Virus record (IMG/VR): IMGVR_UViG_3300032046_000006
Span: 41,888 to 105,887 of that record
Strand: one strand, 5' to 3'
Origin: a virus
Length of the DNA: 64,000 bases
Below are positions 10,182 to 24,043 of the stretch, piece after piece. The translations under genes were made by a program, and so were the position numbers. The notes beneath the pieces are model-generated. The model did not search any database, was not told the DNA's origin, and saw only the letters and a program-made list of their open reading frames with translations. Within the stretch, counting starts at the first letter, position 1. Every line of letters begins with the position of its first letter.

Positions 10182-10898
10182 TTAATTAGTTAGTTTATCT
10201 TTTATTTGCTGTCTTAATTCCATTTGATTATACCTAACATCTGACATTAAATTAAACATTGTTGGGTAATCGACTTTCTCGAAATTTTGAATCGCCGATT
10301 GTGGCGATACATTAAAAATTTTTGATTTAGAATTATTAAAATGTTTAAAAAATCTATCTGGGTCGTTGTGATTATAATATGAAACAAGTCCACTCCCACG
10401 ATGTAAAATTTTTTTTCCGTAATAATGAATGTCTTCTTTAGTTTGGGTTATCTTTTTATCTTTTGGATTTAGTTGCCCATAATCGAATCCGCATAAAAAT
10501 AGATTTTCAGGTTCAAACAATAAAGCCAGTTGCAAAGAAAAAATCCCAGTTAAAAAAGTTAAAAAACCATCTCGTAATGGATTATCTGAATAATTAGCAT
10601 TTCTTTTTAATAAGATAGTATTGGGATGTATTATTAGATTGGCTTTTGGTTTCATTGTACTGATAATTAGAGGTTCCTCTTTTAATCGTTCATAAATATC
10701 GGGATGTCTAGCAAGATTGGTAGAACGATAAAATTCCCTATCACAACAAGTTAAAAGAGTATGGTCAAAATGAAAAAAGGAAAAATTGCATACTATCACA
10801 AACTTATCTTTTATTTTATCTTTTAGACCTAAAGAGATTCCGTCAGATACAGATTTTCCTCCACCAATAATTATGATTTCTTTTATTTCTGGCACCAT
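10182..10898 (-). CDS. Sialyltransferase-fold (CstII/Maf-DUF115-like) glycosyltransferase
   Basis: IIIIGGGKS..VCN..D..TGIFSLQLA..LFLCGFDY pattern. Confidence 0.6.
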   Translation of the reverse strand: MVPEIKEIIIIGGGKSVSDGISLGLKDKIKDKFVIVCNFSFFHFDHTLLTCCDREFYRSTNLARHPDIYERLKEEPLIISTMKPKANLIIHPNTILLKRNANYSDNPLRDGFLTFLTGIFSLQLALLFEPENLFLCGFDYGQLNPKDKKITQTKEDIHYYGKKILHRGSGLVSYYNHNDPDRFFKHFNNSKSKIFNVSPQSAIQNFEKVDYPTMFNLMSDVRYNQMELRQQIKDKLTN

Positions 10899-11063
10899 TT
10901 ACATCCTTTTCCTCTTCTAAATTTGAAATTAGGTAGATTGCGTAAACAGTTAGGGCATTGCTCTATTTTAGAGCATTTTGGCTCATAAAATGCCACTTTT
11001 CTGCTTGTTTTATGCTTAAACCCACATAATATATGTATTTCTTCTAATAATCCTCTAATCAGG

Positions 11064-11222
11064 TCATTCTTCATTTTTTACCTTTCTTATTTCCCAGAAT
11101 TTTTTACGAACAATAGTTCCATCTAATAAACGAATATCTAAATCTTCGGAATAAATTTCGATAACATTTCCCTCACATACTTGATTATTGTTTTTCACTA
11201 ATACTGGGCACCCGAGGTACAT
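11064..11222 (-). CDS. Small hypothetical protein (52 aa, MYLGCPVLVK...)
   Basis: Read manually; AAGGA RBS; coupled to its neighbours. Confidence 0.45.
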   Translation of the reverse strand: MYLGCPVLVKNNNQVCEGNVIEIYSEDLDIRLLDGTIVRKKFWEIRKVKNEE

Positions 11223-11223
11223 T

Positions 11224-11781
11224 TTATCCTTTTATTAGTTTAATATTTTTCTTTTCTTTTATCCAATTTAAAATTAAATCTTTTTCAAAATCACCAAGGT
11301 GCCAAGGTTGTGTTTTTAAATTATGGTAAAAAGTCCCCGATTCAAAAAAATCAAATCCATAAATAGTTAATGATTTAAATTCTATATATTTTATTAAAAA
11401 ATGTATTGCTAAAAGTCCGGTCGAAGGAAGTTTATCTTCGGGAAAGAAAAATTTAAGTTCTCTCCAATCTTCGGCTGGGTTTTGGAAAGCATTTTCTTTT
11501 ATCCAATCTGTTGCTAATCTATTATCTGCGGTCATCCATACGACATACTTTGCATTAAAATTGCGTTTTAATTCTTCTTTGAAGCGGGTAGATATAAATA
11601 ATACATCAGTTCTTTTTCCTATAAATTCTTCTTTTCCTTGAGAAATCCCCCGGTTCATTCTACAAATTATATCAAATTTTTCTATGTCTTTTTTGGTATT
11701 TAATATACTACGGGCATTTCCTAATAAACAAATATCTTTATCCTTTAAATATAATTGTAACTTAGTTAGGTTAGTTTTCAT
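11224..11781 (-). CDS. GT29 sialyltransferase-like glycosyltransferase
   Basis: Sialylmotif-like L (ICLLGNA..IEKFDIICRMN..GKRTD), S (PSTGLLAI..YGFDF) and VS (HxxxxE). Confidence 0.8.
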   Translation of the reverse strand: MKTNLTKLQLYLKDKDICLLGNARSILNTKKDIEKFDIICRMNRGISQGKEEFIGKRTDVLFISTRFKEELKRNFNAKYVVWMTADNRLATDWIKENAFQNPAEDWRELKFFFPEDKLPSTGLLAIHFLIKYIEFKSLTIYGFDFFESGTFYHNLKTQPWHLGDFEKDLILNWIKEKKNIKLIKG

Positions 11782-12374
11782 TTTAAATGCCTTGTTTTCC
11801 TCGATAACTGATACTGTTCGATTATCGCATTATCTATCGGATTATGAGTTAACCCCTTTGGTGTTGTAGGAATATAACAATATTCCCAAGGCAAATTAAA
11901 ACAGGTTATTTCTGGATGGCATTTTAATAACTCAGTCAATTCGTGTCTGTGAGAATGAGTTATATTGGCAATGATTTTTGCAAGTTCTTCTAATAACAAT
12001 TTGGTTTTATTATTATTTTTTATAAATAAAGTTCCATCCAATAATTCTAATCTTTCTTGAGTTTTTCCGAAATGTTTTTTCCAAGATAAAATATGAAATC
12101 CTAAATCTTCAGTAATTTCAAATAAAAGAGAGGGGTATCGCAAAATATTGGCATCGGCGTCGACCCAAACAAGGTCTTCAGTAGAACTATTCAATTTTTC
12201 TAAAATAATATCTACTTTATGAGAACTATTTTTTTGCCATTTACCGAGAGATTCAAAAGGTTTAACCCAATAATTGAGATTAAATTTTTTAAATGAAGGA
12301 ACGAGTACATTATTGATTTGTTCTTCATAAGGAGTGTTGACAGTGTATCCTGATATGAAAATTAAATTATTCAT
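11778..12374 (-). CDS. Nucleotide-diphospho-sugar transferase (GT-A fold)
   Basis: VWVDADA DxD motif, GTLFIKNN, LPWEYC. Confidence 0.75.
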   Translation of the reverse strand: MNNLIFISGYTVNTPYEEQINNVLVPSFKKFNLNYWVKPFESLGKWQKNSSHKVDIILEKLNSSTEDLVWVDADANILRYPSLLFEITEDLGFHILSWKKHFGKTQERLELLDGTLFIKNNNKTKLLLEELAKIIANITHSHRHELTELLKCHPEITCFNLPWEYCYIPTTPKGLTHNPIDNAIIEQYQLSRKTRHLK

Positions 12375-15300
12375 TTAATAATGACTAATAATTGGGACTA
12401 TTGTGGGAGATTTTTTATTGGTAGAAACAACATAGCAATATTCAGAAGGTAATTCAAATAATTTTATGTCTGGATTTTGTTTTAAGGCTATCTCAAAAGC
12501 GATTCGCTGTCTTTGTTCGCAATTAGGTAACTCTTTTTCCCATGAATCGAGAAATTTTAATACTTTTTCGTTATTTCTTAAAAATATAGTTCCGCATAAA
12601 GGATGTTTTGGAATAATCTTGTTATGTATTTTTGTTTCTTCTGTATAATGAATGGCAATGTCATAATATTCTGGAATTTCATCAAATAAAGAAGGATAAG
12701 AATTAATAGTTGCGTCAATATTTATGAATATGACATCTTCTTCATGAGTTAATAAAAACTGCTTGATAAAATCAATACGATAATTGCTATTTAGTCGCCA
12801 ATTTCCTAAAGAAGGAACTTCATTAATATAATAATTTAATTTGAGATTTTTTACAGAAGAAAGTAGATATTTTTCGGCGATAGATTTTTGCTCATTAATA
12901 TAATAACTGATTATTGTGTTATCTAATTTAGTAGAAACTATAATATTGGGGGCTGTTTTGATTTCAGTTAAATAATTATTTGTAAGATTTTTTATAGTTT
13001 CATAATCCTTTTCATAAATTGATTTGTAAATTTTATCCCATTTGGGTTGCAATAAAGACCAACTAAAATATTTTTCAACCCATAAACGATTTCTTTCTCC
13101 TATTTGTTTTCTTAATTTAGGATTTTGTTTTAAAATATCCAAACATTTATTCATACTATCAACAGTTTTATCTTCTTCAACAGGGACTATCCATTGAGGT
13201 TCAAGAAGTAATCTAATAGACCCAACATCGGTAGAAATCACAGGTATTCCGCATGCCATTGCCTCCAGAACTACTCTTGGCATAGCTTCACTTGAACTCG
13301 TCAATACAAGAACATCGATAGTTTTATAGAACTCTTTCATTGGGTCTAAGTTTGTTTCTTTAAGAAAGAGTTTTTCATTATGTCCAGAACATTGTTTGAT
13401 TACTGGGTATTTTAATTTATCAAGCAAATGTGTTCTTTTTACTGGGGCTTCTCTTCCCACCCAGCCAACATTAAATCTATTTCTATTAAATTTATTGGGA
13501 AGAAAATAATTGGTATCTATTCCTTTAGGTAACCATACGGTTTGTTTAGGTAAATATCTTTTTTTAATGGTAGGTAAAAAATTAAGAGATAGAGTAGCAA
13601 ATAAATCAATATATTCTGCGGGATATTCACGATTTGCTTCTCCTCCATCAGACCCGATTATTATTAATCCACTTTCTTTCGCTTTTTTTAAAATGGGAAT
13701 ATTATAAGAATGAAACATAACTGGAGAATGGAAATACATTATATCATATTTCGTGAAGTCAAAATCATTAAGTTTTTCATATAATTCTTCTATTTTAATA
13801 CAATCTAAATTATATTTGGAATATTTTTTCCGTTCTAAATAATTAAAATAAAACGCCCATCCATACTGGTCTACTATTTCAAGAATTCTTAAAGAGGGAT
13901 TAATTATTGTTTTTGCTTTTTTAAGAAAGTCGTCAGTTATCAATTCTATAGTATCAAAATCGTCATAATATAAAGATTTAAATACTTTATCCCAAAGTGG
14001 TTGATTAACTTTCCAACTAAATTGTTCTTCCATTCGTTCTCTGTTTTTTTTACCTATTTCTTTTCTCAGATTTGGATTTTTTTCTAATAATTTCAATTTT
14101 TGATTCATTTCTTTAATACATTGAGTTTGTTCAATGGGAACCATCCATTCTTCATTTAAAAGAATAGGAACACTACCAACAGGGGTAGAAATTACAGGGA
14201 TTCCGCATGCCATTGCTTCTAAAACACTTCTTGGCATACATTCTTGCTCGCTCATAAGAACTAAACAATCCAAAGATTGATAAAACTTTTTCATTGGTTC
14301 TAATGTTCGTGTTTCTATAAAGAATTCTTTTCCATGTTGCGTTTGAGTTTCAATTGGGTAATTTAATTGTTGTAAAAGATTATTTCGCTTTTCTCCACAA
14401 TTTATTCTTCCTACCCAACCCACTTTAAATTTTGTGTTATCAAATTCTTTTTTAGGTAAAAAGAAGTTAGTATCAATAGATTCTGGCAAAAAGACCACAT
14501 GGATTCCTGGATAAGTTTTTTTTAATTTTTCTATATCATTATAATCAATCGCCACAATTAAGTCAGCATAAGGATATTTGCCTAATATCATACCTGAATG
14601 TGCTCCAATAATTTTGGTATTTTTAAATTTTGGAGATTTTTTGATTTCTGGAATAATATTAAAAACGCTATTACTGATATTAGTTTGAGGAAAATAAATA
14701 ATATCAGGAGTTTTAGTTTCTAAATATTTATTTAAATCTTGCAATCGGCAATATTCTATATTATGCTCGCTATATTTTTGTTGTTCTTTTGCTATAAAGA
14801 AATAAGCCCATCCGAATTGGTCAATTACTTTGAGTATATTTAATTTTTTGGGGTTGAGTTGAGTATTTTTTATATTAAAATCAAGATTTAATTTGGCAGA
14901 ATATACTCCTAATAACGCCCAAAAATCGATTTCGTTAAATCCGCACAATAATCTTTCTAAAAATATTTTTTCAAAATCCCCCCATCCCGTCCATTTATAT
15001 TTTTTAATTTTTTGAGTTAAAGTATAATATCTTTGATAAATCAATTTATTAGTCCACAAAGGCGAATGAATTCCCATTACCATTTTATTCTTTAGGGTTT
15101 TATATCCATTTTTTTCTATTTGTTCATGAAAATCGGATGTTCCGTCTGTATTGGTGGAATCATTCAATATATTAAATTTATAATTTTTTACTATTTCGTA
15201 TTTATAGCATTTAAGAGCATCAATTTTCTTGTTTAAATGTTCATCCAAAAGTTTAAAAATATAACTAAATGTTTTGCTGTCGCTCTGTTTTAGAGTATTA

Positions 15301-15539
15301 TAAACAATCTCAATAGCATTAGGATAAAGAATAAAATCTCCATCACATTGTATAAAATAAGGAGTTTTGCATCGATTAATCATTTCTTGCATTGCTTTAT
15401 TTTGAGGACATATATCTTTTATTATATCTAATTTAAATTGAACTGTTTGTTTTTTTAATGCTTCTATACAACCAAGATAATTAGGATTGCCCTCAATTGA
15501 TAGAACAAATACAGTTAAACTTGCTGATAAATCTACCAT
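12375..15539 (-). CDS. Four-domain glycosyltransferase (GT2-like + GT4 + GT4 + GT-A)
   Basis: FIQCDGD; two copies of VGWVGR..S..E.MPR.VLEAMACGIPVIST.VG..FSW; C-terminal domain paralogous to 11778..12374. Confidence 0.85.
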   Translation of the reverse strand: MVDLSASLTVFVLSIEGNPNYLGCIEALKKQTVQFKLDIIKDICPQNKAMQEMINRCKTPYFIQCDGDFILYPNAIEIVYNTLKQSDSKTFSYIFKLLDEHLNKKIDALKCYKYEIVKNYKFNILNDSTNTDGTSDFHEQIEKNGYKTLKNKMVMGIHSPLWTNKLIYQRYYTLTQKIKKYKWTGWGDFEKIFLERLLCGFNEIDFWALLGVYSAKLNLDFNIKNTQLNPKKLNILKVIDQFGWAYFFIAKEQQKYSEHNIEYCRLQDLNKYLETKTPDIIYFPQTNISNSVFNIIPEIKKSPKFKNTKIIGAHSGMILGKYPYADLIVAIDYNDIEKLKKTYPGIHVVFLPESIDTNFFLPKKEFDNTKFKVGWVGRINCGEKRNNLLQQLNYPIETQTQHGKEFFIETRTLEPMKKFYQSLDCLVLMSEQECMPRSVLEAMACGIPVISTPVGSVPILLNEEWMVPIEQTQCIKEMNQKLKLLEKNPNLRKEIGKKNRERMEEQFSWKVNQPLWDKVFKSLYYDDFDTIELITDDFLKKAKTIINPSLRILEIVDQYGWAFYFNYLERKKYSKYNLDCIKIEELYEKLNDFDFTKYDIMYFHSPVMFHSYNIPILKKAKESGLIIIGSDGGEANREYPAEYIDLFATLSLNFLPTIKKRYLPKQTVWLPKGIDTNYFLPNKFNRNRFNVGWVGREAPVKRTHLLDKLKYPVIKQCSGHNEKLFLKETNLDPMKEFYKTIDVLVLTSSSEAMPRVVLEAMACGIPVISTDVGSIRLLLEPQWIVPVEEDKTVDSMNKCLDILKQNPKLRKQIGERNRLWVEKYFSWSLLQPKWDKIYKSIYEKDYETIKNLTNNYLTEIKTAPNIIVSTKLDNTIISYYINEQKSIAEKYLLSSVKNLKLNYYINEVPSLGNWRLNSNYRIDFIKQFLLTHEEDVIFINIDATINSYPSLFDEIPEYYDIAIHYTEETKIHNKIIPKHPLCGTIFLRNNEKVLKFLDSWEKELPNCEQRQRIAFEIALKQNPDIKLFELPSEYCYVVSTNKKSPTIVPIISHY

Positions 15540-16192
15540 TTTTTTTCTCCGCAGTTAAAAAGATAATCAATTGCTGAAAGTCCAGGTAAGAATGGTTCAT
15601 ACATCTGATTATAGATAGGATGTTCAAATTCGTGAAAGACCACATTTATTCTTGCACACTTAAATAGAGGTAAATCTAAGTAATCCATTCCACTCTGTCC
15701 AGATAAATAAGTATCTGCTCTCAACATTTGGCAAATTTCCAAACATTTTCCAGAACCATGTTTAGAGTATAAATTGAGATTAGAAGTAAATTCAATACGA
15801 GGTTTAATATTAAACCAGTTTAACATTTGACATAATAATTCATAATTATAATCAAATAAGAAATCATATTTTTTATTAATAATCTCTTGAATTTTCGGAA
15901 AATATTTATCGAAATAAGAAGATTTAGAGTAATTTTGTTGAATCGAATTTAACATTTTTCTTTGCCAATCGGATTCATGTACTACTTTTACTTCTTTAAA
16001 ATTTAAACCAAGGTGAAAGTTAGTAGGAATAGTAACCCATTGGCAACCTTGCGGGGTTCTGATTTTGTTGCGATTGTCATAATAATTCTTTTTCACTTGA
16101 AAAGTATCTGCAATTACAAAAGTATCTGCTTTTGAGACTTTATCGAAAAATCCTAAATATGACAAAAACTCTGGTTGGTGAATCACTAACAT
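15533..16192 (-). CDS. WbqC-like protein
   Basis: IHQPEFLSYLGFFDK..NRNKI..YLSGQSGMDYL..Y.Q..F.PGLSAIDYLFN. Confidence 0.9.
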   Translation of the reverse strand: MLVIHQPEFLSYLGFFDKVSKADTFVIADTFQVKKNYYDNRNKIRTPQGCQWVTIPTNFHLGLNFKEVKVVHESDWQRKMLNSIQQNYSKSSYFDKYFPKIQEIINKKYDFLFDYNYELLCQMLNWFNIKPRIEFTSNLNLYSKHGSGKCLEICQMLRADTYLSGQSGMDYLDLPLFKCARINVVFHEFEHPIYNQMYEPFLPGLSAIDYLFNCGEKKW

Positions 16193-16827
16193 TTATACTC
16201 CATTTTTATAATATCAAATACTTCACTATATTTACATCCCAATTCTATGCCTCTTAATGTCGCTAAAGAAGTAACCAAATCTTTCCAATAAAGATATTTA
16301 GAATATTGACTTTTATGTTCTTGTAGAGATTTTAATTTAATGTTAAGAAAGTTGTCAATATTCACATAAAGTAATGGTCTGAATAATTGAGTAGATGTTT
16401 TAGAAGGAAATAAAGTTTCGAACATCCAAATAGTTGGGCAATATCTTGCTGCCGACATTACTGCTCTTGCAGTATTAAAATGGTCAGAATGACTCTCATT
16501 GAGGGCGTGAGTTATGATAATGTTTGGTTTAAAAATATCCATCCATCTATTTAACGATTCTATTAGATTAGAATTGAAAGGAACATCTTTCGTGGGATAA
16601 TTTAAACAAATCATTTTTTGTACTCCCAAAACTTCAAAACTCTTGACTCCTTCTTCTTTTGCTTGTTGTTCTGTTCGCAAGATAGCCCCATTATAGGAGG
16701 TATAATCTGATTTAGTAACTGTAATAGTCCATACAATATCTCCTTGAGAAGTAAATTTTGCAATAGTTCCTCCACAGGAGAGAACTGCATCATCAAAATG
16801 TGATTCTACAATTAGTATATTTTTCAT
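16186..16827 (-). CDS. PIG-L/LmbE family deacetylase
   Basis: SHFDDAVLSCGG, HSDH, HKSQ. Confidence 0.9.
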   Translation of the reverse strand: MKNILIVESHFDDAVLSCGGTIAKFTSQGDIVWTITVTKSDYTSYNGAILRTEQQAKEEGVKSFEVLGVQKMICLNYPTKDVPFNSNLIESLNRWMDIFKPNIIITHALNESHSDHFNTARAVMSAARYCPTIWMFETLFPSKTSTQLFRPLLYVNIDNFLNIKLKSLQEHKSQYSKYLYWKDLVTSLATLRGIELGCKYSEVFDIIKMEYKC

Positions 16828-17730
16828 CTACTTCTCCATAAAATTTCTAAAACAATATTTGCAAGCCAACGGTAATTCTCCATAGAAACCTTTTCTAAAT
16901 TGGGTACAGTATTCGTTTTCCCATACATTTTTATCGTAAATAGTTCCATTTTCTTTCTTGGGGGAAAAAATTGAGTTACAAATCGATATACTTCCATTTC
17001 CATTTATTGATATTCTACTCCACGCCAATCTACACCATTTTTTAAGATTGTTTGGGTCAATTAAAGTCGGATAGCAGGTAATTAAATTTGATTCAGGTAA
17101 AGTTTTTATTTTATCTATTGATTCGTTTTCCCAATAAGTTAAAACTCTATTTAAAAATTCATTCTTGGTTTGTTCATCTTTTATATGATGAGGCAAAATA
17201 TTTATTAGATGGACTTCTCTTACTTTGAGTGTTTTTGCTAATCTTAAAAATTCAGGAATATGAATAAGATTAAATTTATCGCAAACATAAGATAAATAAA
17301 TATTAAATCCTTCTTTTATATATAATTTTATTCCTTCTAAAATATGAATAAATTGATTTTTATTATGACAGATTTTTTCATGTAATTCTTGTGTCGGGGC
17401 ATTAAGACTAACCGAAATATAATTGGGGGAATATTTTTTAAGAATATTAAATCTGTCTATTAATAAACTTCCATTAGTAATAAGTCCGCAATATACATTT
17501 TTTTCTTTGATAAATTTTAAAATTTCTTCTAAATTCTCGCACATAAGAGGTTCGCCAAAACCTGCTAAACATAGTCCTTTAATTGTAGGGAAAGATTCTA
17601 ATAGTTTCTCTATTGCCTCTATAGACATATCTGGAGATGTTTCTATTTTTTTGCTTTGTCTAAGGCAAAAGGAGCATTTAAAATTGCATTTGTTGGTCAT
17701 AAATAAAGTGGCAATAGTAGGAAGATTCAT
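16828..17730 (-). CDS. Radical SAM protein with SPASM/twitch domain
   Basis: CNFKCSFC, GFGEPL, TNG, C-terminal C..C..CKYC. Confidence 0.9.
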   Translation of the reverse strand: MNLPTIATLFMTNKCNFKCSFCLRQSKKIETSPDMSIEAIEKLLESFPTIKGLCLAGFGEPLMCENLEEILKFIKEKNVYCGLITNGSLLIDRFNILKKYSPNYISVSLNAPTQELHEKICHNKNQFIHILEGIKLYIKEGFNIYLSYVCDKFNLIHIPEFLRLAKTLKVREVHLINILPHHIKDEQTKNEFLNRVLTYWENESIDKIKTLPESNLITCYPTLIDPNNLKKWCRLAWSRISINGNGSISICNSIFSPKKENGTIYDKNVWENEYCTQFRKGFYGELPLACKYCFRNFMEK

Positions 17731-17731
17731 T

Positions 17732-18346
17732 TTATTCCTTTTTTAATATCATTAAAAATTCTTCTTCGGTATATGTGGTAATTCCATCTGCATACTCTCT
17801 CAATCCAATCCAAGGTATTTTCCGTATAGATAATCGAGTATATCGTTCAGTAAGTTTCATTATATCTTCTTCTAACAGACAATATGGATGGGCAGAATCT
17901 CTAACTTTCTTTTCTTTAAAAAACTCTACAGCTAAAATAAAATGTCCTTGTGGTTTTAATACTCTATAAATTTCATTATTTGTTTTTTCAATATCATCAA
18001 CATGGTCAAGAGCATTAGAGCAAAAAACTACATCAAAAAAATTATCCTTAAATGGGATGTTTTCTCCTTTTGCTTTTAAAATGTTTAATTCAGGAGGATA
18101 ATCGTATAATGTTTTATAAGTTTCTGCTAATGGGTCTATCCCAAATCTTTCTCCTGGAAGAAAGTGCAAAATAGTAGAAATTCCACATCCCATATCCAAA
18201 ATAATGGATCGATTATTAAATTTACAATGGTCAAGAATAGTATCAAAATATCTATATTTTTGCCAATATTCTAATACTTTTTCTTTATTATTTTTAAATA
18301 TTTTTGCCCAGCGTTTTTGAAATAATAATTCGTCTTCGGCTTTCAT
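17732..18346 (-). CDS. Class I SAM-dependent methyltransferase
   Basis: LDMGCG, IPFKDNFFDVV, LDH, RVLKPQG; start taken at the ATGA overlap. Confidence 0.9.
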   Translation of the reverse strand: MKAEDELLFQKRWAKIFKNNKEKVLEYWQKYRYFDTILDHCKFNNRSIILDMGCGISTILHFLPGERFGIDPLAETYKTLYDYPPELNILKAKGENIPFKDNFFDVVFCSNALDHVDDIEKTNNEIYRVLKPQGHFILAVEFFKEKKVRDSAHPYCLLEEDIMKLTERYTRLSIRKIPWIGLREYADGITTYTEEEFLMILKKE

Positions 18347-19248
18347 CGAATCATCTCCTGAAAGTGGGAATCTATTATTCGAACTGCAATCTTCATTTCT
18401 GTCATCAAATTGATTTTGGAATTCCATAGTTCTACATCTACAGGTTCTTTAATTAACCTTATAAGTTCTTCGCCATTTGAAAAGGTAGAAAGTTCTAAAT
18501 CCTCCACCATTTCTGGTTGAATGTAAGTTTCTCGGCTTAATTTTTTACTTCTAGGAATTAATGTTCTTATTCCTCTCCCAACCATATCAAGAACAGAAAA
18601 TTCATAACTTCCCGCATGAGTTTGAATGAATGTTTCTATTTGAGAAGTATTATTCATATACTCTTCATAAGTTGGAGTATTTAACATTGGCTTTATATAA
18701 GAAGCAACAGTTTCTTTTTTAGTAAACTGATAAATTTGATATTCTTCTTTAAGAGGTTTTAGCCACTCTGCAATTTCTTTAGATATATCACGACAATCGG
18801 GGCATACTCCTACATCATCTAATAAAATAGTTTTCGGAATTTTGGGTTTATTAATCATAAAATCTTTACTATATGGAAAAGGAATATAACAATCCATCGG
18901 TTTTTGTTTTCTATGTAATCCAAAGAAATAATCAACGGGTTGATTAGATGATTCTATGAAAGAGCAAATTTGATATTTAATTCTTGGTTTAACTTTTTGT
19001 ATTTGGTCAATAGGAGGGTAATGATTCCAAGTATGAATTAATAAAAAATCCAGATTAGGTATTTTATCAAGAAAAAGATTGGGATTGTTCCATTCTCCTC
19101 CTCCAGATAAGGGCAATAAATGCAATGTTACATAAGGCAAAAGTTTAAATTCTTTTTCTAATCCAGCATAATTCATTTCGACTGCTTGAGTGCACTCTTT
19201 CAAAGAATTTGCTCTCCAACCTATTAATCCTAACGAATAATTATTCAT
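18343..19248 (-). CDS. Divergent GT-B-like protein
   Basis: FIQTHAGSYEFSVLDMVGRG resembles the GT-B E-x7-E region; operon context. Confidence 0.45.
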   Translation of the reverse strand: MNNYSLGLIGWRANSLKECTQAVEMNYAGLEKEFKLLPYVTLHLLPLSGGGEWNNPNLFLDKIPNLDFLLIHTWNHYPPIDQIQKVKPRIKYQICSFIESSNQPVDYFFGLHRKQKPMDCYIPFPYSKDFMINKPKIPKTILLDDVGVCPDCRDISKEIAEWLKPLKEEYQIYQFTKKETVASYIKPMLNTPTYEEYMNNTSQIETFIQTHAGSYEFSVLDMVGRGIRTLIPRSKKLSRETYIQPEMVEDLELSTFSNGEELIRLIKEPVDVELWNSKINLMTEMKIAVRIIDSHFQEMIR

Positions 19249-19250
19249 TC

Positions 19251-19382
19251 TTAATCCTTTAAAATATAATAAAGTTTCTTTATATTTTCCCAAGTTAATT
19301 TAAATAGTTCACTAGTGAATATAAATAAAAATATAATTATGCCACAAATAAACCCGATAAAAAAATAGAACAATTTACTCAT
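19251..19382 (-). CDS. Small membrane protein (43 aa, MSKLFYFFIGFICG...)
   Basis: Read manually; single hydrophobic segment. Confidence 0.5.
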   Translation of the reverse strand: MSKLFYFFIGFICGIIIFLFIFTSELFKLTWENIKKLYYILKD

Positions 19383-19914
19383 TATATTTTCCTTCTTTTA
19401 ACCATTGAGAATATGCCTGTAAAATTTCTGATATTGTAACAGGGCAATAATTCCATTGTTCCACCGAAACATTACAGCAATCTGTAAATGTCATACCCTT
19501 ACGAAATCTCTTAAATTTCCACTTTTCATGTACGTGTCCGCAAATATTGAAATTATAGTTTACATTGCAATATTCTGGGTCATGAACTAAAAATATTCGT
19601 TTCCCTCCAAGTTTGATAACCAGATTTTGGATGGGAGTTTTACATCCATTATTTTTATCATGGCTCCCATCAAGGAATATGATATTCCCCTTTAATAATG
19701 GTCTAATAGTATCGAATTTTTGCCCATCGGGAGCTTCAGTTGATTTAGTAAACCCCCAATCACCCAAGAAGAATATAGTATCGTTAGATTTAACTCTTGA
19801 ATTCCAATTATCTATGATTTTTTTATTCATTTCCTCTACATTAGAGAAAGGTCTATTGCAATAAGATATAATTTTTGTATGTGAAAAATGGGTATCACTA
19901 ATAAAGAAAAACAT
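19375..19914 (-). CDS. Calcineurin-like metallophosphoesterase
   Basis: SDTHFSH, LGD, GSHD, GHVH. Confidence 0.85.
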   Translation of the reverse strand: MFFFISDTHFSHTKIISYCNRPFSNVEEMNKKIIDNWNSRVKSNDTIFFLGDWGFTKSTEAPDGQKFDTIRPLLKGNIIFLDGSHDKNNGCKTPIQNLVIKLGGKRIFLVHDPEYCNVNYNFNICGHVHEKWKFKRFRKGMTFTDCCNVSVEQWNYCPVTISEILQAYSQWLKEGKYNE

Positions 19915-19928
19915 TTATTTTATCCTTT

Positions 19929-20522
19929 TTATCTAATTATTTCATCACATACTTTTTTTCGCAATGCTTCTTCTGCTGTTAACCATAATTCGCCTGCATT
20001 CATTTTGTGCATATCGAGATTGGTTAATTTAGTATATTTTTTACAAAGATTATCCATATTTTTTTCAAGTTGAGTTAAAAATTTTACTCTATCTTTTATA
20101 TATTGTAAATAATCGCATTGACCCTCGCTAAGAGGATGAAACATAATATAACTATTAGCATACATTTTTCTTCTTTTACCTGTAATAAAAATCAAAGCGG
20201 ACATACTGCATGTTTCCCCACTAATGATAGTATGAATTGGGGCTTTGCTATGTTCTATAGCATTAATAATAGAAAATCCGCAACTTACTTCCCCTCCAGG
20301 ACTATTAATTTCAATTGTGATTGGTTTTTTATCATCAAGAATATTCATAGCTTTAATTTTTGTTACTATTATATCTGAAGATTCATTAGTAATAATGTCA
20401 TAAAGTAAAATATATCTTTCTTTGTTTAAAATTTTGAAATAGTAATCTTCCCCCCATTTTTCTTCTTTTTTAATTGCAGTAATTTCTTCTTCATTTTCTT
20501 TATCACGATAAAAACTATTCAT
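19929..20522 (-). CDS. clpP: ClpP-like protease
   Basis: INSPGG, CSMSA (Ser), IMFHP (His), ELWLTAEEA. Confidence 0.85.
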   Translation of the reverse strand: MNSFYRDKENEEEITAIKKEEKWGEDYYFKILNKERYILLYDIITNESSDIIVTKIKAMNILDDKKPITIEINSPGGEVSCGFSIINAIEHSKAPIHTIISGETCSMSALIFITGKRRKMYANSYIMFHPLSEGQCDYLQYIKDRVKFLTQLEKNMDNLCKKYTKLTNLDMHKMNAGELWLTAEEALRKKVCDEIIR

Positions 20523-21695
20523 TTATTCCTCCTTTATTTTTAAATACTTAATTATGGGTAGGCATAAAAATGAAGTTCCCGCCGAAAGAATAATAAGCCA
20601 TTTTAATCCCACCAAAGGAAATAAAAACGCTCCACTAAAACTACTCGCAGTTCCTGCTGATAAATTATTTATACCACATAACAAGGCAAATGTAGTTGCT
20701 TCTAATCCTTTTATTGAGGACTTAGCAAGGAAATCCATCATAATAAGATGAATAATCATTCCTATAAGAGAATAGATGCAAAGATAAATAATAGCGCTTA
20801 TAGAAGTATAATAAAGATATGATAGCGTTATTAATGCTCCTAAAAAGACACTATAAGTAAGCCATTTTTTAATATTAATTTTTTGACTAAATTTCCAATA
20901 AATCATAGCTCCGACAATTGAAATTACGGAAGCAATAGTTCCTAAAAATCCCATAAATTGAAAACTCCATTTGAAATTATCACGTTCCAGATAGGATAGT
21001 GGTGTGCCAAAAGAGGGGGAATATTTATATAAAAATAAAAATAAACAAGCCCATAAAAAGGATTTATGTTTAAAAATTTCTTTATAGGATTTTATCATAT
21101 CTATTATTTTTATTTTAGTATGCTTAATTTTTTCTTCTCTATAAAAATAAATAGGAATAAACATCATTATATAAAATGGTATGAGTAATAAAAATCCTGC
21201 TTTATAAGAATGATGGTCAGCTAAATAGCCCCCCAGTAATCCTGTTATAATTGTAGCAATTGTAATAAATATCCATTGTAAACTCTGAATTTTGCCTGTA
21301 GCATTGTATTTTTTCCCTTCTATACACATTGTGCCATCTACAGCGACATCCCTTATAGCAGAATTTGTAGAATTAATAAACATCATAGTAATCAACAAAA
21401 CTAAAGGCAAAGACCAAATTCCCAAAAACAAAACCGTTATAATGTCTAAAATAATAGAAATAGAAATCCAAGTTTTTCTTGACATAAATTGGTCTATAAA
21501 AAATCCCCATAAAATTTTAGGTATCCAAGCAAGTCCTATAATAGCATTTAAAGTCATTAATTTTTCAGGAGGATACATAAGAACTTCCTTAAAATATTTA
21601 AAAAGAGAAAGACTCGGCAAGCCTTCAATGCCCTGTATAAAATAACACATCGCCGATAATGAATAAATCCAAAATAATTTTTTATCTATTTTCAT
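20523..21695 (-). CDS. MFS transporter, BT1 folate-biopterin family-like
   Basis: About 12 TM segments; YFIQG, AWIPKILWGFFID, DVAVDG, GKIQSLQW. Confidence 0.75.
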   Translation of the reverse strand: MKIDKKLFWIYSLSAMCYFIQGIEGLPSLSLFKYFKEVLMYPPEKLMTLNAIIGLAWIPKILWGFFIDQFMSRKTWISISIILDIITVLFLGIWSLPLVLLITMMFINSTNSAIRDVAVDGTMCIEGKKYNATGKIQSLQWIFITIATIITGLLGGYLADHHSYKAGFLLLIPFYIMMFIPIYFYREEKIKHTKIKIIDMIKSYKEIFKHKSFLWACLFLFLYKYSPSFGTPLSYLERDNFKWSFQFMGFLGTIASVISIVGAMIYWKFSQKINIKKWLTYSVFLGALITLSYLYYTSISAIIYLCIYSLIGMIIHLIMMDFLAKSSIKGLEATTFALLCGINNLSAGTASSFSGAFLFPLVGLKWLIILSAGTSFLCLPIIKYLKIKEE

Positions 21696-21786
21696 TCTTT
21701 CATTTCCTTTATTAAACAAAAAAATGCAGCAACCCAATACCCAATATACCATAATAACCAAATAATAAATAATCCTATGTAGAAGT

Positions 21787-22353
21787 TTAGCATTTTATTT
21801 TTTTTAATTCTAAAATAATAAAGGGTCTTCTTACTCCTGCACTAAAATTTTCGGCACATTCTAACGCATTTCTTACTATTTCTTTGCCCGACAGTTTTTT
21901 AGAATTAGTATAAATAGACCCCAAAGCATAAGATTCCCCGCATCCGCATGAATCATAATTATCGTAGGTCATTGCCACTTGCAAATCGTCTACTATTTTA
22001 TAAATTTTACTATTATAACCAACTAAAAAGGTTCCTATTTCTTCTTGATTATCTTCAATTTTACTATATCCATTATCTTTTAAACATTTTCTTACTGCAT
22101 CAATAAATTCTGTACACATATATTCATAATCGCTGACTTTATCTTTATGAACAGGTATTTCTAATTTAAATCTCAATAACTGTCCCATTCTGAATGATGA
22201 AGTATATCCCATTAACATATTTTCTTTTTGAAATACTTTTACATCACTTCTAATTCTAATATCATGCCTTCCTACTCCTGCTGAGTCGCCTCCCATAAAC
22301 ATGTTTCCTTTATTGTCTACATAACCAACAATACAAGTAGTTGTTGTAATCAT
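21787..22353 (-). CDS. Ntn-hydrolase protease (HslV/proteasome-beta-like)
   Basis: N-terminal TTCIVG, GGDS, KVF, CGCGESYALG; AAGGAGG RBS before 22353. Confidence 0.7.
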   Translation of the reverse strand: MITTTTCIVGYVDNKGNMFMGGDSAGVGRHDIRIRSDVKVFQKENMLMGYTSSFRMGQLLRFKLEIPVHKDKVSDYEYMCTEFIDAVRKCLKDNGYSKIEDNQEEIGTFLVGYNSKIYKIVDDLQVAMTYDNYDSCGCGESYALGSIYTNSKKLSGKEIVRNALECAENFSAGVRRPFIILELKKIKC

Positions 22354-22587
22354 TTTTTCCTCCTTATTAATCTTCATCTATGAGCAATCCGCAGTTTAAA
22401 CAATCTGTAACCCATCCATCTGGATAAATCCCTATAGTAGAAATTCTACCTCCACATAAACATCTTGGCGGTTTTTTGTATTGCCCTATCTTGTAATAAT
22501 AAAAATACTGTAATTCAGTAGCAAGAGATAATCCAAATTTGGTGCGATAATGAATTTTTTCTAATAAGTAAAGAATTAATTCAATCA

Positions 22588-23184
22588 TTATAATATTCCT
22601 TTCCATAATAAATAAAATACATAAGGAAGATATAAAATATTTATCGTCATTAAAATTATAAATCCTATTCTACATATTTTTTCCATTAATTTATATCCCT
22701 TTTCTTTTCCATAAAATTTTTCTAACCAAACCAAATAAGGATAGCTTCCGTCAAGGCAAGGCACCGGAAGCAGGTTAGTTACCCCTAAAGACAGACCAAT
22801 TGCCCCAAAATAAAATATATTAAAATTCATTATTTTTAATCCAATAATATAAAATACTATTCCAAATAAAATATTTGTCAAACATCCTGCTATTGCAATT
22901 AATAATTTTTTATGATAAGGGAGATTGGTAAACGAATCTTTATCATTACCATTTGTAAGTTCGTCGTGTAACTTGGTATATCCCCCCAAAGGAATATAAG
23001 TAATTTGATAAATAGTTCCTTTAATTTCTTTTCTATAGAATGGTCGCCCAAAACCTAAAGATACTATGTCTACGCCACAATGACACCCTTTGGCAGCGAT
23101 AAAATGCCCTAATTCATGAATAATAATACATCCCATGATAGAAATTAAAAATCTTAAAAAATGAAATAAAAAATTAAGTATCAT
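22588..23184 (-). CDS. Site-2 (M50/RseP-like) intramembrane metalloprotease, no PDZ domain
   Basis: IHELGH, SLGFG, IPLGGY, NLLPVPCLDG. Confidence 0.9.
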   Translation of the reverse strand: MILNFLFHFLRFLISIMGCIIIHELGHFIAAKGCHCGVDIVSLGFGRPFYRKEIKGTIYQITYIPLGGYTKLHDELTNGNDKDSFTNLPYHKKLLIAIAGCLTNILFGIVFYIIGLKIMNFNIFYFGAIGLSLGVTNLLPVPCLDGSYPYLVWLEKFYGKEKGYKLMEKICRIGFIILMTINILYLPYVFYLLWKGIL

Positions 23185-23829
23185 TTATCTCCCATGATTT
23201 ATGTCTCTATGGCGCTTATCTATTATTAATTTGCCTTGTAAATGGTCGACCTCATGTTGAGTACAAAAAGATTCGGTATCCTGCATCATCATTAATTGTT
23301 GTTTTAAAGTCTCATCTTCAAACTGTACAGTTATAAAGACCCACCTATCAGTATCAATTCTTAAATTCGGTAAACTAAGGCAACCTTCTTTTTGAACAAC
23401 AATTTTTCGGGTGTGTTCGACTATTTTTGGATTAATCAAAACCAATTCAGTAAATTCAATCTTCTTGTCTACGATTTTGGGGATTTTTATATAACTTATC
23501 TTTTTATTGTATCCGATTTGATTGCTCGACAGTCCCAGACCGCCGACTTTATTTAGAGTTTCTTTTAATTCAATTATGATTTGTTTAATATCTTCATCTT
23601 TCTCAACCGCAGTGCAAGGAATTCGCAATAAGTTAATATTGGTAGTGATAGGTCTAATGTTAGGAGTAGGAGTTTCTTCCTTTATAAATTCAGGTTTATA
23701 TCCTTTTTCTAACATTTTATTTAAGACAATTCTTTCAGAACGGGTTAAATAACCCATCTTCATTCTTGCTTCTTGTTCACCAAGGTAGGTATCGAAATCT
23801 GATTTATTCTTAAATTGATTTTTCAACAT
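23185..23829 (-). CDS. def: Peptide deformylase with N-terminal extension
   Basis: GLGLSSNQIG, EGCLS, QHEVDHLQG. Confidence 0.92.
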   Translation of the reverse strand: MLKNQFKNKSDFDTYLGEQEARMKMGYLTRSERIVLNKMLEKGYKPEFIKEETPTPNIRPITTNINLLRIPCTAVEKDEDIKQIIIELKETLNKVGGLGLSSNQIGYNKKISYIKIPKIVDKKIEFTELVLINPKIVEHTRKIVVQKEGCLSLPNLRIDTDRWVFITVQFEDETLKQQLMMMQDTESFCTQHEVDHLQGKLIIDKRHRDINHGR

Positions 23830-24043
23830 TCTTCCTCCCGAGTCCAATCTTCTTCTCTCATTACAAAGGTTTCTATTCCTGAAAGCATCTTAATTTTGTG
23901 TGCTACTTTTCCAAGAGTTCCTATTTGTTTATCCCCAATGTAAATACCTCTTTCTCCTGCCCAAGGATGTTTTCCACAAAGAATTATTCTATTATTTAAT
24001 TTCATTATTCTCCTTTATTTTAATATGATAAAAAGTCCAATTC

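What the first reader, a model, noticed from the sequence alone, without database searches (positions are those of the whole stretch)
10182..19248. Phage-encoded soluble glycan assembly and tailoring operon with two sialyltransferase-fold enzymes, abutting the tail module
Seen: a tightly coupled operon with up to eight glycosyltransferase domains (CstII/Maf-like, GT29, GT-A, a 4-domain GT, GT-B-like) plus WbqC, PIG-L deacetylase, radical SAM/SPASM and a SAM methyltransferase. None of these enzymes has an obvious TM segment, and there is no flippase, bactoprenol transferase or Wzy. Known: serotype-conversion (gtr) systems are membrane-based; GT29 and CstII/Maf folds transfer CMP-activated sugar acids such as nonulosonates; PIG-L enzymes free N-acetylated amines and WbqC is a proposed glycyl transferase. 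Inference: the phage builds a multi-sugar, acid-capped and chemically tailored glycan on a cytoplasmic acceptor, most plausibly virion proteins and alternatively DNA. This is far more elaborate than the 1-3 GT sets typical of phages, and is the best candidate for an undescribed system here.
Basis: partly seen in the sequence, partly recalled or inferred. Interest (0 to 1): 0.8.

Follow-up and report, generated by a model that had tools for sequence, protein, structure and literature searches.

The report
Phage glycan-building gene island beside tail genes
An uncultured 106-kb phage carries twelve tightly packed genes for soluble enzymes that build and chemically tailor a complex sugar chain. 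It most likely decorates the phage's own particle proteins, but the target is unproven and host-surface remodelling remains a serious alternative.

Summary
Window 10182-19248 (minus strand) is a 12-ORF operon with gaps of at most 1 nt or overlapping start/stop codons. It encodes eight glycosyltransferase-like domains, seven with intact catalytic motifs.

The tailoring enzymes are WbqC, PIG-L, a radical SAM enzyme with a single four-Cys auxiliary cluster (not a full SPASM domain) and a SAM methyltransferase.

New here:
- WbqC folds like the bacillithiol ligase BshC (Z 13.7).
- WbqC is paired with PIG-L in 58 of 72 viral WbqC loci. This implies a 'remove N-acetyl, then ligate an amino acid' step on an amino sugar.
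- The 185-aa protein is a mini-GT29 that keeps residues matching, from my recall of the motifs, sialylmotifs S, III and VS.
- The 198-aa protein is the closest structural match (Z 18) to the chlorovirus capsid-glycosylating enzyme A64R.

The operon is a mosaic of modules that recur, shuffled and fused, in many uncultured phages. It sits at the same site in three related genomes. It is not a recent copy of a host LPS locus.

The complete genome lacks hydroxymethylase, TET/JBP, C5-methylase and ParB, so a DNA target is unlikely. It also lacks donor-synthesis genes and lipid-carrier machinery. The acceptor cannot be settled from sequence: virion protein about 0.4, host envelope glycan about 0.3.

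This scan has noted similar cassettes on other phage DNA.

The parts
18343..19248 (-). 301-aa GT-B (GT4-like) glycosyltransferase; first gene of the coupled block
   Evidence: No Pfam hit. ESM Atlas structure matches to GT4 clusters, TM 0.71-0.78; nearest feature clusters are mostly viral. 52% identical orthologue in G001; homologues in L006, L007, L010-12.
17732..18346 (-). SAM-dependent methyltransferase (class I). The likely start is M28 of the longer ORF, forming an ATGA overlap with the upstream stop
   Evidence: Methyltransf_11 E 5e-18; start analysis. Absent from G001.
16828..17730 (-). Radical SAM enzyme with one C-terminal four-Cys auxiliary cluster (Twitch / short SPASM)
   Evidence: Radical_SAM E 3e-22; SPASM 18.4 bits, below the 21.5 cut-off. 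Invariant C15/C19/C22 plus C233, C251, C290, C293. Fused to the GT-A N-domain, with or without GT4, in L007-9, L010, L012-14 and L018. Profile hits NifB, MoaA, viperin, CteB, BlsE and BtrN.
16186..16827 (-). PIG-L/LmbE-family de-N-acetylase
   Evidence: PIG-L E 3.5e-21; BshB1 E 9e-19, below cut-off. The HFDD motif is visible at residues 10-13. 76% identical in G001, the best-conserved cassette gene.
15533..16192 (-). WbqC-family protein, predicted ATP-dependent amino-acid:amino-sugar ligase (BshC-like core)
   Evidence: PF08889 205 bits. AF2 model pLDDT 95.9. Top Foldseek hit BshC 4wbd. VIA Z 13.7, rmsd 3.1, 210/219 aligned; next is class I LysRS at Z 10.6. PIG-L lies within 10 kb in 58 of 72 viral WbqC loci and is adjacent in 45.
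12375..15539 (-). 1054-aa four-domain protein: GT2-like GT-A (aa 1-215, DGD), GT4 unit a (aa ~225-540, EX7E at 433), GT4 unit b (aa ~545-862, EX7E at 751) and a degenerate A64R-like GT-A (aa 863-1054, NxD)
   Evidence: Two Glycos_transf_1 stretches. Weak GT2 and Nucleotid_trans hits for the ends. The GT4 units are tandem duplicates, 38% identical. The C-domain is 36% identical to the 198-aa protein. Motifs. Homologues with shuffled architectures.
11778..12374 (-). 198-aa minimal retaining-type GT-A, A64R-like, with DAD motif
   Evidence: AF2 pLDDT 94. Foldseek top hit PBCV-1 A64R, E 1.9e-8. VIA Z 18.0, rmsd 2.8, 182/198 aligned. Family of 1481 cluster representatives with invariant D72, D74, S191 and R192.
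11224..11781 (-). 185-aa mini-GT29 sialyltransferase-like enzyme
   Evidence: PF00777 29.1 bits against a cut-off of 23. ST3Gal-I 2wnb E 0.0017. About 50 homologue clusters, nearly all ~185 aa, most with PF00777. Invariant GN, RxN, RTD, PSTG, GFD, Y152 and H161-x4-E166. Adjacent or fused to the 198-aa family in 15 of 49 viral loci.
11064..11222 (-). 52-aa conserved small ORF, function unknown
   Evidence: 54% identical orthologue in the same place in G001. No family hit.
10883..11074 (-). 63-aa small ORF with CxxC...CxxC (zinc-ribbon-like), function unknown
   Evidence: Sequence. No family hit. Only a weak 26-aa match in G002.
10182..10898 (-). 238-aa MptE-like/DUF115 (Maf/WaaZ-type) putative ulosonic-acid transferase; last gene, its stop abutting the convergent tail gene
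   Evidence: PF01973 E 0.01, below threshold. ESM Atlas structure TM ~0.7 to MptE-like and WaaZ_KDO_III clusters, mostly viral. Orthologues in G001, G002 and G003 at 34-41% identity.
19375..19914 (-). Metallophosphoesterase; possible cassette member
   Evidence: Metallophos_2 and phrog_547. In G001 its orthologue lies inside the glycan cassette, between GT2-TPR-LicD and the RmlD-like gene.
20523..21761 (-). BT1/MFS 412-aa membrane transporter upstream on the same strand (context; link to the glycan unproven)
   Evidence: BT1 E 1.7e-21, MFS_1 E 1.3e-15. Conserved in G001, G002 and G003.

Best explanation
A phage-specific, cytoplasmic glycan assembly line made of four recurrent modules.

Shown: twelve translationally coupled genes encode seven catalytically intact GT domains, one degenerate GT domain, four tailoring enzymes and two small proteins. 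The phage makes no sugar donors and no lipid-carrier or export machinery, so it must draw on host nucleotide sugars.

Inferred order of events:
1. A GT4 unit installs an N-acetyl-hexosamine.
2. PIG-L removes the N-acetyl group.
3. WbqC, a BshC-like class-I-aaRS-core ligase, re-acylates the freed amine with an amino acid, using ATP.
4. The radical SAM enzyme and the methyltransferase tailor further.
5. The GT-B protein, the A64R-like GT-A, the mini-GT29 and the MptE-like enzyme extend and cap the chain. The last two probably use host CMP-activated ulosonic acids (Kdo, Pse, Leg or Neu type).

Most likely acceptor (inferred, unproven): one or more of the phage's own structural proteins. The virion would then leave the cell glycosylated, as in mycobacteriophages and chloroviruses.
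For: - Coupled operon and domain calls.
- WbqC resembles BshC and the PIG-L/WbqC pair is conserved in viruses.
- GT4 EX7E and GT-A DxD motifs are intact.
- The mini-GT29 motif residues are invariant.
- The A64R capsid-glycosylating GT is the best structural match, end to end. Glycogenin ranks next and GlyE appears further down the list; from general knowledge both glycosylate proteins.
- MptE/Maf-type enzymes are cytoplasmic flagellin glycosyltransferases (established knowledge).
- Relatives of the GT4 unit are fused to TPR protein-binding repeats (P0042-44), and G001 encodes a GT2-TPR-LicD protein.
- The families are mostly viral. Among 185,579 species genomes there are only generic GT4 hits plus one probable phage contig.
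- The island sits at the same place, against the convergent distal tail genes, in G000, G001 and G002, with different content in each.
- No hm-pyrimidine, TET, C5-MTase or ParB route to DNA exists.
- No PGT, WecA or Wzx is present.
Against: - No acceptor is identified.
- The ESGE motif proposed as a sequon is enriched only in G000: 4 observed against 0.23 expected. It is not conserved in orthologues of G001. G002 and G003, which share the GT29/GT-A/MptE module, have none in any protein.
- The operon lies with early/middle and auxiliary genes on the minus strand, not in the late structural operon.
- Soluble GTs can also act on lipid-linked or nucleotide-linked host intermediates.
- Donor specificities are inferred from fold only.
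- The phage is uncultured and its host is unknown.
- The radical SAM substrate is undetermined.
Confidence: 0.42

Rival explanations
1. Host-envelope remodelling. The soluble enzymes act during infection (or lysogeny; the phage has a tyrosine recombinase) on the host's nucleotide sugars or undecaprenyl-linked intermediates. The host's own export machinery then displays an altered LPS, capsule or surface glycoprotein. This would mask the receptor against superinfection or stop progeny from re-adsorbing.
For: - Marine myophages carry GT and radical-SAM cassettes in the hypervariable host-recognition cluster next to tail fibres, and these were read as O-chain modification (PMC7029224).
- Soluble prophage enzymes EpaA/EpaB rewrite capsule pseudaminic acid (PMC12053666).
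- WbqC, LicD and GT4 are classic surface-polysaccharide families.
- In other viral loci the WbqC/PIG-L pair sits with DegT, PseB-like and NeuB sugar-nucleotide genes.
- The island co-varies with the distal tail genes.
- Phage_integrase is present, and a BT1/MFS transporter lies upstream.
Against: - There is no priming transferase, flippase or other membrane component, and the enzymes have no TM segments.
- The families are predominantly viral and long diverged from cellular homologues.
- The best structural analogue of the GT-A is a capsid-glycosylating enzyme.
- Relatives with the same modules include 250-390-kb contigs; from general knowledge such jumbo phages are usually lytic.
Confidence: 0.3
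2. DNA hypermodification. The glycosyltransferases and tailoring enzymes build a tailored (amino)sugar on a base of the phage genome to block restriction.
For: - Phage GTs can put diverse glycans on DNA (Pyle et al., bioRxiv 10.1101/2023.12.21.572611).
- Other cassettes in this scan with PIG-L, radical SAM and GT were read as DNA-directed.
- The phage invests in anti-restriction: ArdA and two N6/N4 methylases.
Against: - The genome is complete (DTR, CheckV 100%) and has no thymidylate-synthase-family hydroxymethylase, no TET/JBP, no C5-methyltransferase and no ParB at E<=1.
- From general knowledge, sialyltransferase-type and A64R-like enzymes have no known DNA substrates.
- The island is next to tail genes, not packaging or replication genes.
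Confidence: 0.06
3. Small-molecule product. The GT4 / PIG-L / BshC-like ligase / methyltransferase set makes a bacillithiol- or mycothiol-like aminoacyl-glucosaminide, or an aminoglycoside-like metabolite, for redox control or competition. The other GTs are accessory.
For: - The enzyme logic is the same as BshA/BshB/BshC and MshA/MshB/MshC.
- WbqC-BshC Z 13.7.
- PIG-L's best NCBIfam hits are BshB1 and BshB2, and the GT4 region hits BshA and MshA.
- GT4, PIG-L and a Twitch-type radical SAM co-occur in butirosin and neomycin pathways (established knowledge).
Against: - All the NCBIfam hits are far below the equivalog cut-offs, and generic EPS GT4 models score higher.
- Seven GT domains are far more than such a product needs.
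- There is no acceptor-forming enzyme (inositol-phosphate or 2-DOI synthase, aminotransferase) in the Pfam sweeps.
- WbqC is only the core of BshC and does not match BshC by sequence.
Confidence: 0.06

Closest known systems
Virion glycosylation of mycobacteriophages (Che8, Corndog, Myrna; Freeman et al. 2023, as summarised in PMC12619734)
   Same: Phage-encoded soluble glycosyltransferases, with methyltransferases in some phages, decorate the phage's own capsid and tail-tube subunits in the cytoplasm, using host donors.
   Different: Those are actinobacteriophages with 2-6 GTs (my recollection of Freeman 2023, which is not held in the library). No PIG-L, WbqC, radical SAM, GT29-like or MptE-like enzymes are reported. 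Here the acceptor is unproven, and there is no sequence relationship.
Chlorovirus PBCV-1 capsid glycosylation machinery (A064R multi-domain GT plus methyltransferase)
   Same: Virus-encoded, cytoplasmic, multi-domain GT together with methylation. The 198-aa protein and its paralogous domain superpose end to end on A64R domain 1 (Z 18.0).
   Different: That is a eukaryotic giant virus, and sequence identity is only about 9%. The deacetylate/ligate pair, the radical SAM enzyme and the sialyltransferase-type enzymes have no counterpart there.
Bacillithiol and mycothiol biosynthesis (BshA/BshB/BshC; MshA/MshB/MshC)
   Same: GT4 GlcNAc transfer, then PIG-L de-N-acetylation, then ATP-dependent ligation of an amino acid by a class-I-aaRS-like enzyme. 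WbqC's best structural match is BshC (Z 13.7).
   Different: WbqC (219 aa) is only the Rossmann core of BshC (540 aa) and is not a sequence-level member. The phage enzymes sit among six further GT domains, which implies a glycan rather than a thiol cofactor.
Flagellin O-glycosylation with pseudaminic/legionaminic acid by Maf (DUF115) and FlmG, and Kdo transfer by WaaZ
   Same: The MptE-like/DUF115 fold. Maf acts directly on a protein in the cytoplasm with a CMP-activated ulosonic acid.
   Different: The 238-aa phage protein is a bare catalytic core without substrate-binding extensions. Its Pfam score is below threshold. Donor and acceptor are untested.
GT29 eukaryotic and poxviral sialyltransferases (e.g. 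ST3Gal-I, PDB 2wnb)
   Same: The Pfam GT29 hit is above the gathering score. GN, RxN, PSTG...YGFD, Y and H-x4-E positions are conserved, matching my recollection of sialylmotifs L (part), S, III and VS.
   Different: It has only 185 aa against about 270 for the catalytic domain. It is cytosolic, with no stem or TM segment, and the canonical disulfide pair is not evident. It is carried by phages of bacteria.
Hypervariable host-recognition clusters of pelagimyophages and cyanomyophages (PMC7029224) and prophage EpaA/EpaB (PMC12053666)
   Same: Variable islands of GTs and radical SAM cassettes next to tail-fibre genes in low-GC marine phages that also encode peptide deformylase. In the EpaA/EpaB case, soluble phage enzymes edit a nonulosonic acid.
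   Different: Those myophage islands were only annotated, with no module analysis, and were read as host O-chain modification. This phage is an unrelated lineage with a tape measure protein and no cultured relative.

Membership tests
GT29 sialyltransferase (PF00777) | Profile match above Pfam's gathering score | tested here: met
   29.1 bits against a cut-off of 23, covering profile positions 73-155. Most of about 50 homologue clusters carry PF00777.
GT29 sialyltransferase (PF00777) | Sialylmotifs L, S, III and VS, including the catalytic His of VS | tested here: met
   Invariant G21 N22, R41 N43 (L-like), P119-S-T121-G122...G142-F-D144 (S), Y152 (III) and H161-x4-E166 (VS) in a 17-sequence alignment. 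The motif definitions come from my own knowledge of the family. No eukaryotic sequence was included in the alignment.
GT29 sialyltransferase (PF00777) | Full ~270-aa catalytic domain with conserved disulfide; CMP-sialic acid donor | tested here: not met
   The family is uniformly about 185 aa, and no Cys is invariant in the alignment. Donor use cannot be tested here. I therefore call it 'GT29-like mini enzyme', not a GT29 member.
MptE-like / DUF115 (Maf, WaaZ) (PF01973, PF27901) | Profile match above threshold | tested here: not met
   16 bits against a cut-off of 34.6, E 0.01.
MptE-like / DUF115 (Maf, WaaZ) (PF01973, PF27901) | Shared fold with family members | tested here: met
   ESM Atlas structure search gives TM 0.68-0.70 to clusters in which 47-58% of members carry PF01973 and 43% carry WaaZ_KDO_III. 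Both sides are predicted models only.
GT4 (Glycos_transf_1) | Profile match and EX7E motif | tested here: met
   E 1e-31 with two stretches. EX7E at residues 433 and 751; E751 and E759 are invariant in 20 homologues.
WbqC (PF08889) | Profile match | tested here: met
   205 bits against a cut-off of 21.3, full length.
BshC bacillithiol cysteine ligase | Sequence-level membership and the full 540-aa architecture | tested here: not met
   No NCBIfam hit for WbqC. phmmer and profile searches against the PDB do not find BshC. Only the fold matches (Z 13.7, 210/219 aligned). It works like BshC but is not a member.
PIG-L / LmbE deacetylase (PF02585) | Profile match and N-terminal metal-binding H-x-D-D | tested here: met
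   E 3.5e-21. SHFDDA is visible at residues 9-14.
Radical SAM with SPASM domain | CX3CX2C plus a seven-Cys SPASM motif binding two auxiliary clusters | tested here: not met
   CX3CX2C is present. SPASM scores 18.4 bits, below the 21.5 cut-off. Only four C-terminal Cys are invariant, which fits a single auxiliary cluster (Twitch-like).
A64R-like minimal GT-A | End-to-end fold match and DxD | tested here: met
   Z 18.0, rmsd 2.8, 182/198 aligned. D72 and D74 are invariant. The paralogous C-domain of the 1054-aa protein has NxD.
Phage DNA glycosylation (T4-type, MT-TET-GT, ParB-dependent) | An enzyme that creates the acceptor base (hydroxymethylase, or C5-MTase plus TET/JBP), or a ParB partner | tested here: not met
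   PF00303, PF12851, PF00145 and PF02195 are all absent at E<=1 in a complete genome.
Serotype-conversion / lipid-carrier glycan pathways (gtr, Wzx/Wzy) | Membrane components: priming transferase, flippase, polymerase | tested here: not met
   PF02397, PF00953 and PF01943 are absent, and the enzymes have no TM segment. GtrA/B and Wzy families were not searched individually.
Virion glycosylation systems (mycobacteriophage, chlorovirus) | Glycan covalently attached to capsid or tail proteins | not testable with these tools
   This needs virions or heterologous expression. The candidate ESGE sequon is not conserved.

The most novel reading that the evidence does not exclude
The phage leaves the cell with structural proteins carrying a glycan of a kind not described for any virus. 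The glycan would contain an amino sugar whose N-acetyl group has been exchanged for an amino acid by a PIG-L/WbqC pair. That would be the first function for the WbqC family: a minimal BshC-like ligase. It would be capped with a ulosonic acid by a 185-aa GT29-type enzyme, a sialyltransferase family I believe is otherwise known mainly from eukaryotes and their viruses. The cassette would be one instance of a modular, shuffling glycosylation toolkit spread through many uncultured phages.
Probability: 0.25. Interest if true: 0.8.

Novelty: new variant of a known kind. Interest (0 to 1): 0.6.

Why it matters
Virus-encoded glycosylation of phage particles has so far been shown only for mycobacteriophages. 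This island gives concrete, testable enzymology:

- a predicted activity for the uncharacterised WbqC family (PF08889), together with its obligate partner PIG-L;
- a minimal cytosolic GT29-like enzyme, which bears on the origin of sialyltransferases;
- Rosetta-stone fusions that tie a radical SAM enzyme to glycosyltransferases.

If the target is the virion, it implies that marine or environmental phages commonly wear custom glycans. That would affect adsorption, defence evasion and particle stability. If the target is the host surface, it is a soluble, export-independent route to receptor remodelling.

Tried and rejected
- Near-DNA and protein searches against 50,697 phage records found no relative. 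Only weak PrimPol hits appeared, so the host cannot be assigned. Peptide deformylase, RuvB and bacterial RecA argue for a bacterial, not archaeal, host.
Context was obtained through the search for related loci and the genome search instead.
- A single-sequence scan of IMG/VR with the 1054-aa protein found nothing; the alignment-based scan worked.
- Promoter and terminator scans were no better than shuffles.
- The ESGE 'sequon' lead: enrichment in G000 structural proteins is real against composition (4 observed, 0.23 expected). But 4-mers shared by four or more proteins are common in shuffles. The motif is absent or deleted in G001 orthologues and absent from G002 and G003. It is rejected as a conserved sequon and left unexplained.
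- The 185-aa and 238-aa proteins are not detectably related to each other by BLASTP.
- WbqC has no sequence-level PDB relative.
- The context of WbqC in Ralstonia phage RP13 was uninformative.
- The radical SAM enzyme could not be assigned to a sugar or a peptide substrate.
- Freeman et al. 2023 is not held in the library.

Full report
**Setting.** The window is the last 64 kb of a single 105,887-bp IMG/VR virus record with direct terminal repeats. CheckV rates it 100% complete. GC is about 29%. A tape measure gene lies at 774-4025. Plus-strand tail genes run to 10181. From 10182 onward everything is on the minus strand.

No cultured phage is related at DNA or protein level. Peptide deformylase, RuvB, bacterial-type RecA and ArdA point to a bacterial host.

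**The observation.** Twelve minus-strand ORFs fill 10182-19248. Every junction is a 0-1 nt gap or an overlap. The first gene starts at the ATG at 19248, which has an AAGGA ribosome-binding site. The methyltransferase most likely starts at its M28, giving an ATGA overlap.

- Pfam gives WbqC (205 bits), PIG-L, Radical_SAM, Methyltransf_11, two GT4 units in the 1054-aa protein, and GT29 for the 185-aa protein, above the gathering score.
- The three proteins without Pfam hits were resolved by structure. The 301-aa protein is GT-B/GT4-like and the 238-aa protein is MptE/DUF115/WaaZ-like (ESM Atlas). The 198-aa protein is a minimal GT-A.
- The ends of the 1054-aa protein are a GT2-like GT-A with a DGD motif, and a paralogue of the 198-aa protein (36% identity, E 2e-27) that has NxD instead of DxD and lacks the family's C-terminal S-R. 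That end is probably non-catalytic.
- The two GT4 units are tandem duplicates, each with EX7E.
- The radical SAM enzyme keeps only four auxiliary Cys, so it has a single-cluster Twitch or short SPASM domain.

**Soluble, and self-insufficient.**
- No enzyme has a convincing TM segment.
- The complete genome has no Bac_transf, WecA-type transferase or Wzx.
- It has no CMP-sugar synthetase, NeuB, DegT or PseB-type dehydratase.

Donors must therefore come from the host. One caveat to 'no membrane parts': a BT1/MFS transporter (20523-21761) and an M50 protease lie just upstream on the same strand, with peptide deformylase and ClpP. This block is conserved in the relatives.

**WbqC and PIG-L.** WbqC is described in the literature only as an uncharacterised O-antigen-cluster protein.

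An AlphaFold model built from 44 homologues (pLDDT 95.9) has BshC as its top Foldseek hit. On re-alignment it gives Z 13.7, rmsd 3.1 Å and 210 of 219 residues aligned to BshC. That is well above class I LysRS (10.6) and TyrRS/GluRS (7-8). From general knowledge, BshC is the enzyme that adds cysteine to the amine freed by the PIG-L enzyme BshB, after the GT4 enzyme BshA.

In the phage, PIG-L and WbqC overlap by 7 nt and follow a GT4 protein. PIG-L is the best-conserved cassette gene (76% identity to G001).

Across IMG/VR, 72 loci encode WbqC. Of these, 58 have a PIG-L within 10 kb and 45 have it directly adjacent. Many of these loci are close relatives of one another, but they span GC 0.27-0.57. 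Their usual neighbours are DegT aminotransferases, PseB-like dehydratases, NeuB, GT2 and radical SAM genes.

I infer that the pair exchanges an N-acetyl group on an amino sugar for an aminoacyl group.

**Sialyltransferase-type enzymes.** The 185-aa protein belongs to a family of about 50 clusters, nearly all about 185 aa long. So it is a real minimal enzyme, not a fragment. Its invariant residues, compared with my recollection of the sialylmotifs, are:
- GN and RxN, which resemble motif L;
- PSTG...YGFD, which resembles motif S;
- a Tyr at the motif III position;
- H161-x4-E166, which resembles motif VS.

ST3Gal-I is the best PDB sequence hit.

In 15 of 49 viral loci the mini-GT29 is adjacent to the 198-aa GT-A family or fused with it in one ORF. 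In three loci the MptE-like gene follows. Both the GT29 and the MptE/Maf/WaaZ folds use CMP-activated ulosonic acids (established knowledge). The donor here is untested.

**Mosaic of modules.** The GT2-like N-domain, the radical SAM enzyme, the GT4 unit and the A64R-like domain occur in many combinations:
- one 1103-1128-aa protein in L007-9;
- [GT4] plus [N-domain-rSAM] in L010, L012-14 and L018;
- [GT4-N] in L011;
- [N-GT4] in L005 and L006;
- TPR-bearing giants P0042-44.

These fusions tie the radical SAM enzyme functionally to the glycosyltransferases. Neighbouring genes in those loci are TylF-type and other methyltransferases, a GT10-like enzyme and a sulfotransferase.

Among one genome for each of 185,579 prokaryote species, only generic GT4 similarity and one probable phage contig were found. 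The refutation condition 'near-identical to a host locus' is therefore not met.

**Conservation of place.** G001 (97 kb) shares 80 of 169 genes with this phage. G002 (91.6 kb, complete) shares 56, and G003 (82 kb) shares 45. In G001 and G002 a glycan island lies between the replication/auxiliary block and the convergent distal tail genes, which themselves are not conserved. The position in G003 was not examined.

Content differs between genomes:
- G001 has GT4-GT4, PIG-L, WbqC, GT-B, the 52-aa ORF and the MptE-like gene. It also has GT2-TPR-LicD, an RmlD-like gene, a nucleotidyltransferase-kinase, LicD and a GT2.
- G002 has PseB-like and RmlD-like genes plus the GT29 / GT-A / MptE trio. G003 has the same trio, with a LicD homologue upstream in its locus L121.
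- G000 combines both sets and adds the radical SAM enzyme and the methyltransferase.

**The acceptor.** A DNA acceptor is unlikely. There is no thymidylate-synthase-family hydroxymethylase, TET/JBP, C5-methylase or ParB in a complete genome.

Evidence for virion proteins:
- The best structural analogue of the GT-A is the PBCV-1 capsid-glycosylating A64R (Z 18.0). Glycogenin follows at Z 15.4 and GlyE appears lower in the list; from general knowledge both glycosylate proteins.
- Maf-type enzymes glycosylate a protein in the cytoplasm (established knowledge).
- TPR fusions occur in relatives.
- The families are predominantly viral.

Evidence against, or neutral:
- No acceptor is identified.
- The ESGE motif noted earlier in the scan is enriched in G000 structural proteins. 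But it is not robust to multiple testing, it is not conserved in G001 orthologues, and it is absent from G002 and G003.
- Soluble GTs can build on lipid carriers. Soluble prophage enzymes are known to edit the host capsule. Similar islands in pelagimyophages were read as O-chain modification.

I put virion-protein glycosylation at about 0.4, host-glycan remodelling at about 0.3, and DNA and small-molecule products at about 0.06 each. The rest is unassigned.

**Verdict.** This is a real, elaborate, phage-specific glycan island. It is a new variant of a known kind: virus-encoded glycosylation clusters. It yields three concrete new leads: a BshC-like function for WbqC paired with PIG-L, a minimal GT29-type enzyme in phages, and GT/radical-SAM fusions. 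The acceptor and the donors remain to be shown. This scan has flagged comparable cassettes on other phage DNA.

Noticed in passing
window 19929-23847 (minus strand): A block of peptide deformylase, M50 membrane protease, BT1/MFS transporter and ClpP-like protease lies directly upstream of the glycan operon. Most of the block recurs in G001 and G003; G002 was seen to share only the transporter. A folate-biopterin-type transporter in a phage is unusual, and its substrate is unknown.
   Followed up: partly
genome 18964-41034 (L002/L003); e.g. L003:3772-5034: ESGE(E/S) occurs in four unrelated structural proteins of this phage and in no non-structural protein (4 observed, 0.23 expected). It is absent from the three related genomes' orthologues, so its meaning is unexplained.
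   Followed up: yes
L042-L113 (72 IMG/VR loci): WbqC and PIG-L form a conserved adjacent gene pair in viral contigs, usually inside cassettes with DegT, PseB-like dehydratases, NeuB, GT2 and radical SAM genes. These look like phage-encoded nonulosonate or diamino-sugar pathways.
   Followed up: partly
L115-L120, L122: Single ORFs, mostly ~650 aa, fuse the mini-GT29 domain with the A64R-like GT-A domain. This is a Rosetta-stone link between the two enzymes that are neighbours in this window.
   Followed up: partly
genome ends (G000:C1:1-60 and 105828-105887): The record begins and ends in a ~21-bp tandem repeat (CCTCATCCC[A/G]A[A/G]CCTTGT[A/C]TG). This may be the terminal repeat or an assembly artefact at the DTR.
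   Followed up: no
genome 18108-18668, 28608-29321, 38392-38883; window 59514-60374: Several paralogous copies of a ~180-aa domain (46-47% identical to G001 ORFs at 85968-86519 and 76715-77323) are scattered through structural and replication modules. They are likely homing-endonuclease-type selfish genes.
   Followed up: no
window 10181/10182: The last tail-module gene (plus strand) and the last operon gene (minus strand) end on adjacent bases, with no intergenic nucleotide. Convergent transcription has no room for a terminator.
   Followed up: partly
P0026: A 1063-aa GT-A/radical-SAM/GT4 fusion is deposited as 'radical SAM protein [Nitrosarchaeum sp.]' from a MAG. Given its exclusively viral relatives, that 33-kb contig may be a mis-binned virus.
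   Followed up: no
window 42421-64000 and genome 1-12412 (alignment A3): An Amidoligase_2 protein and a second radical SAM protein are encoded elsewhere in the genome. Their positions and roles were not examined.
   Followed up: no
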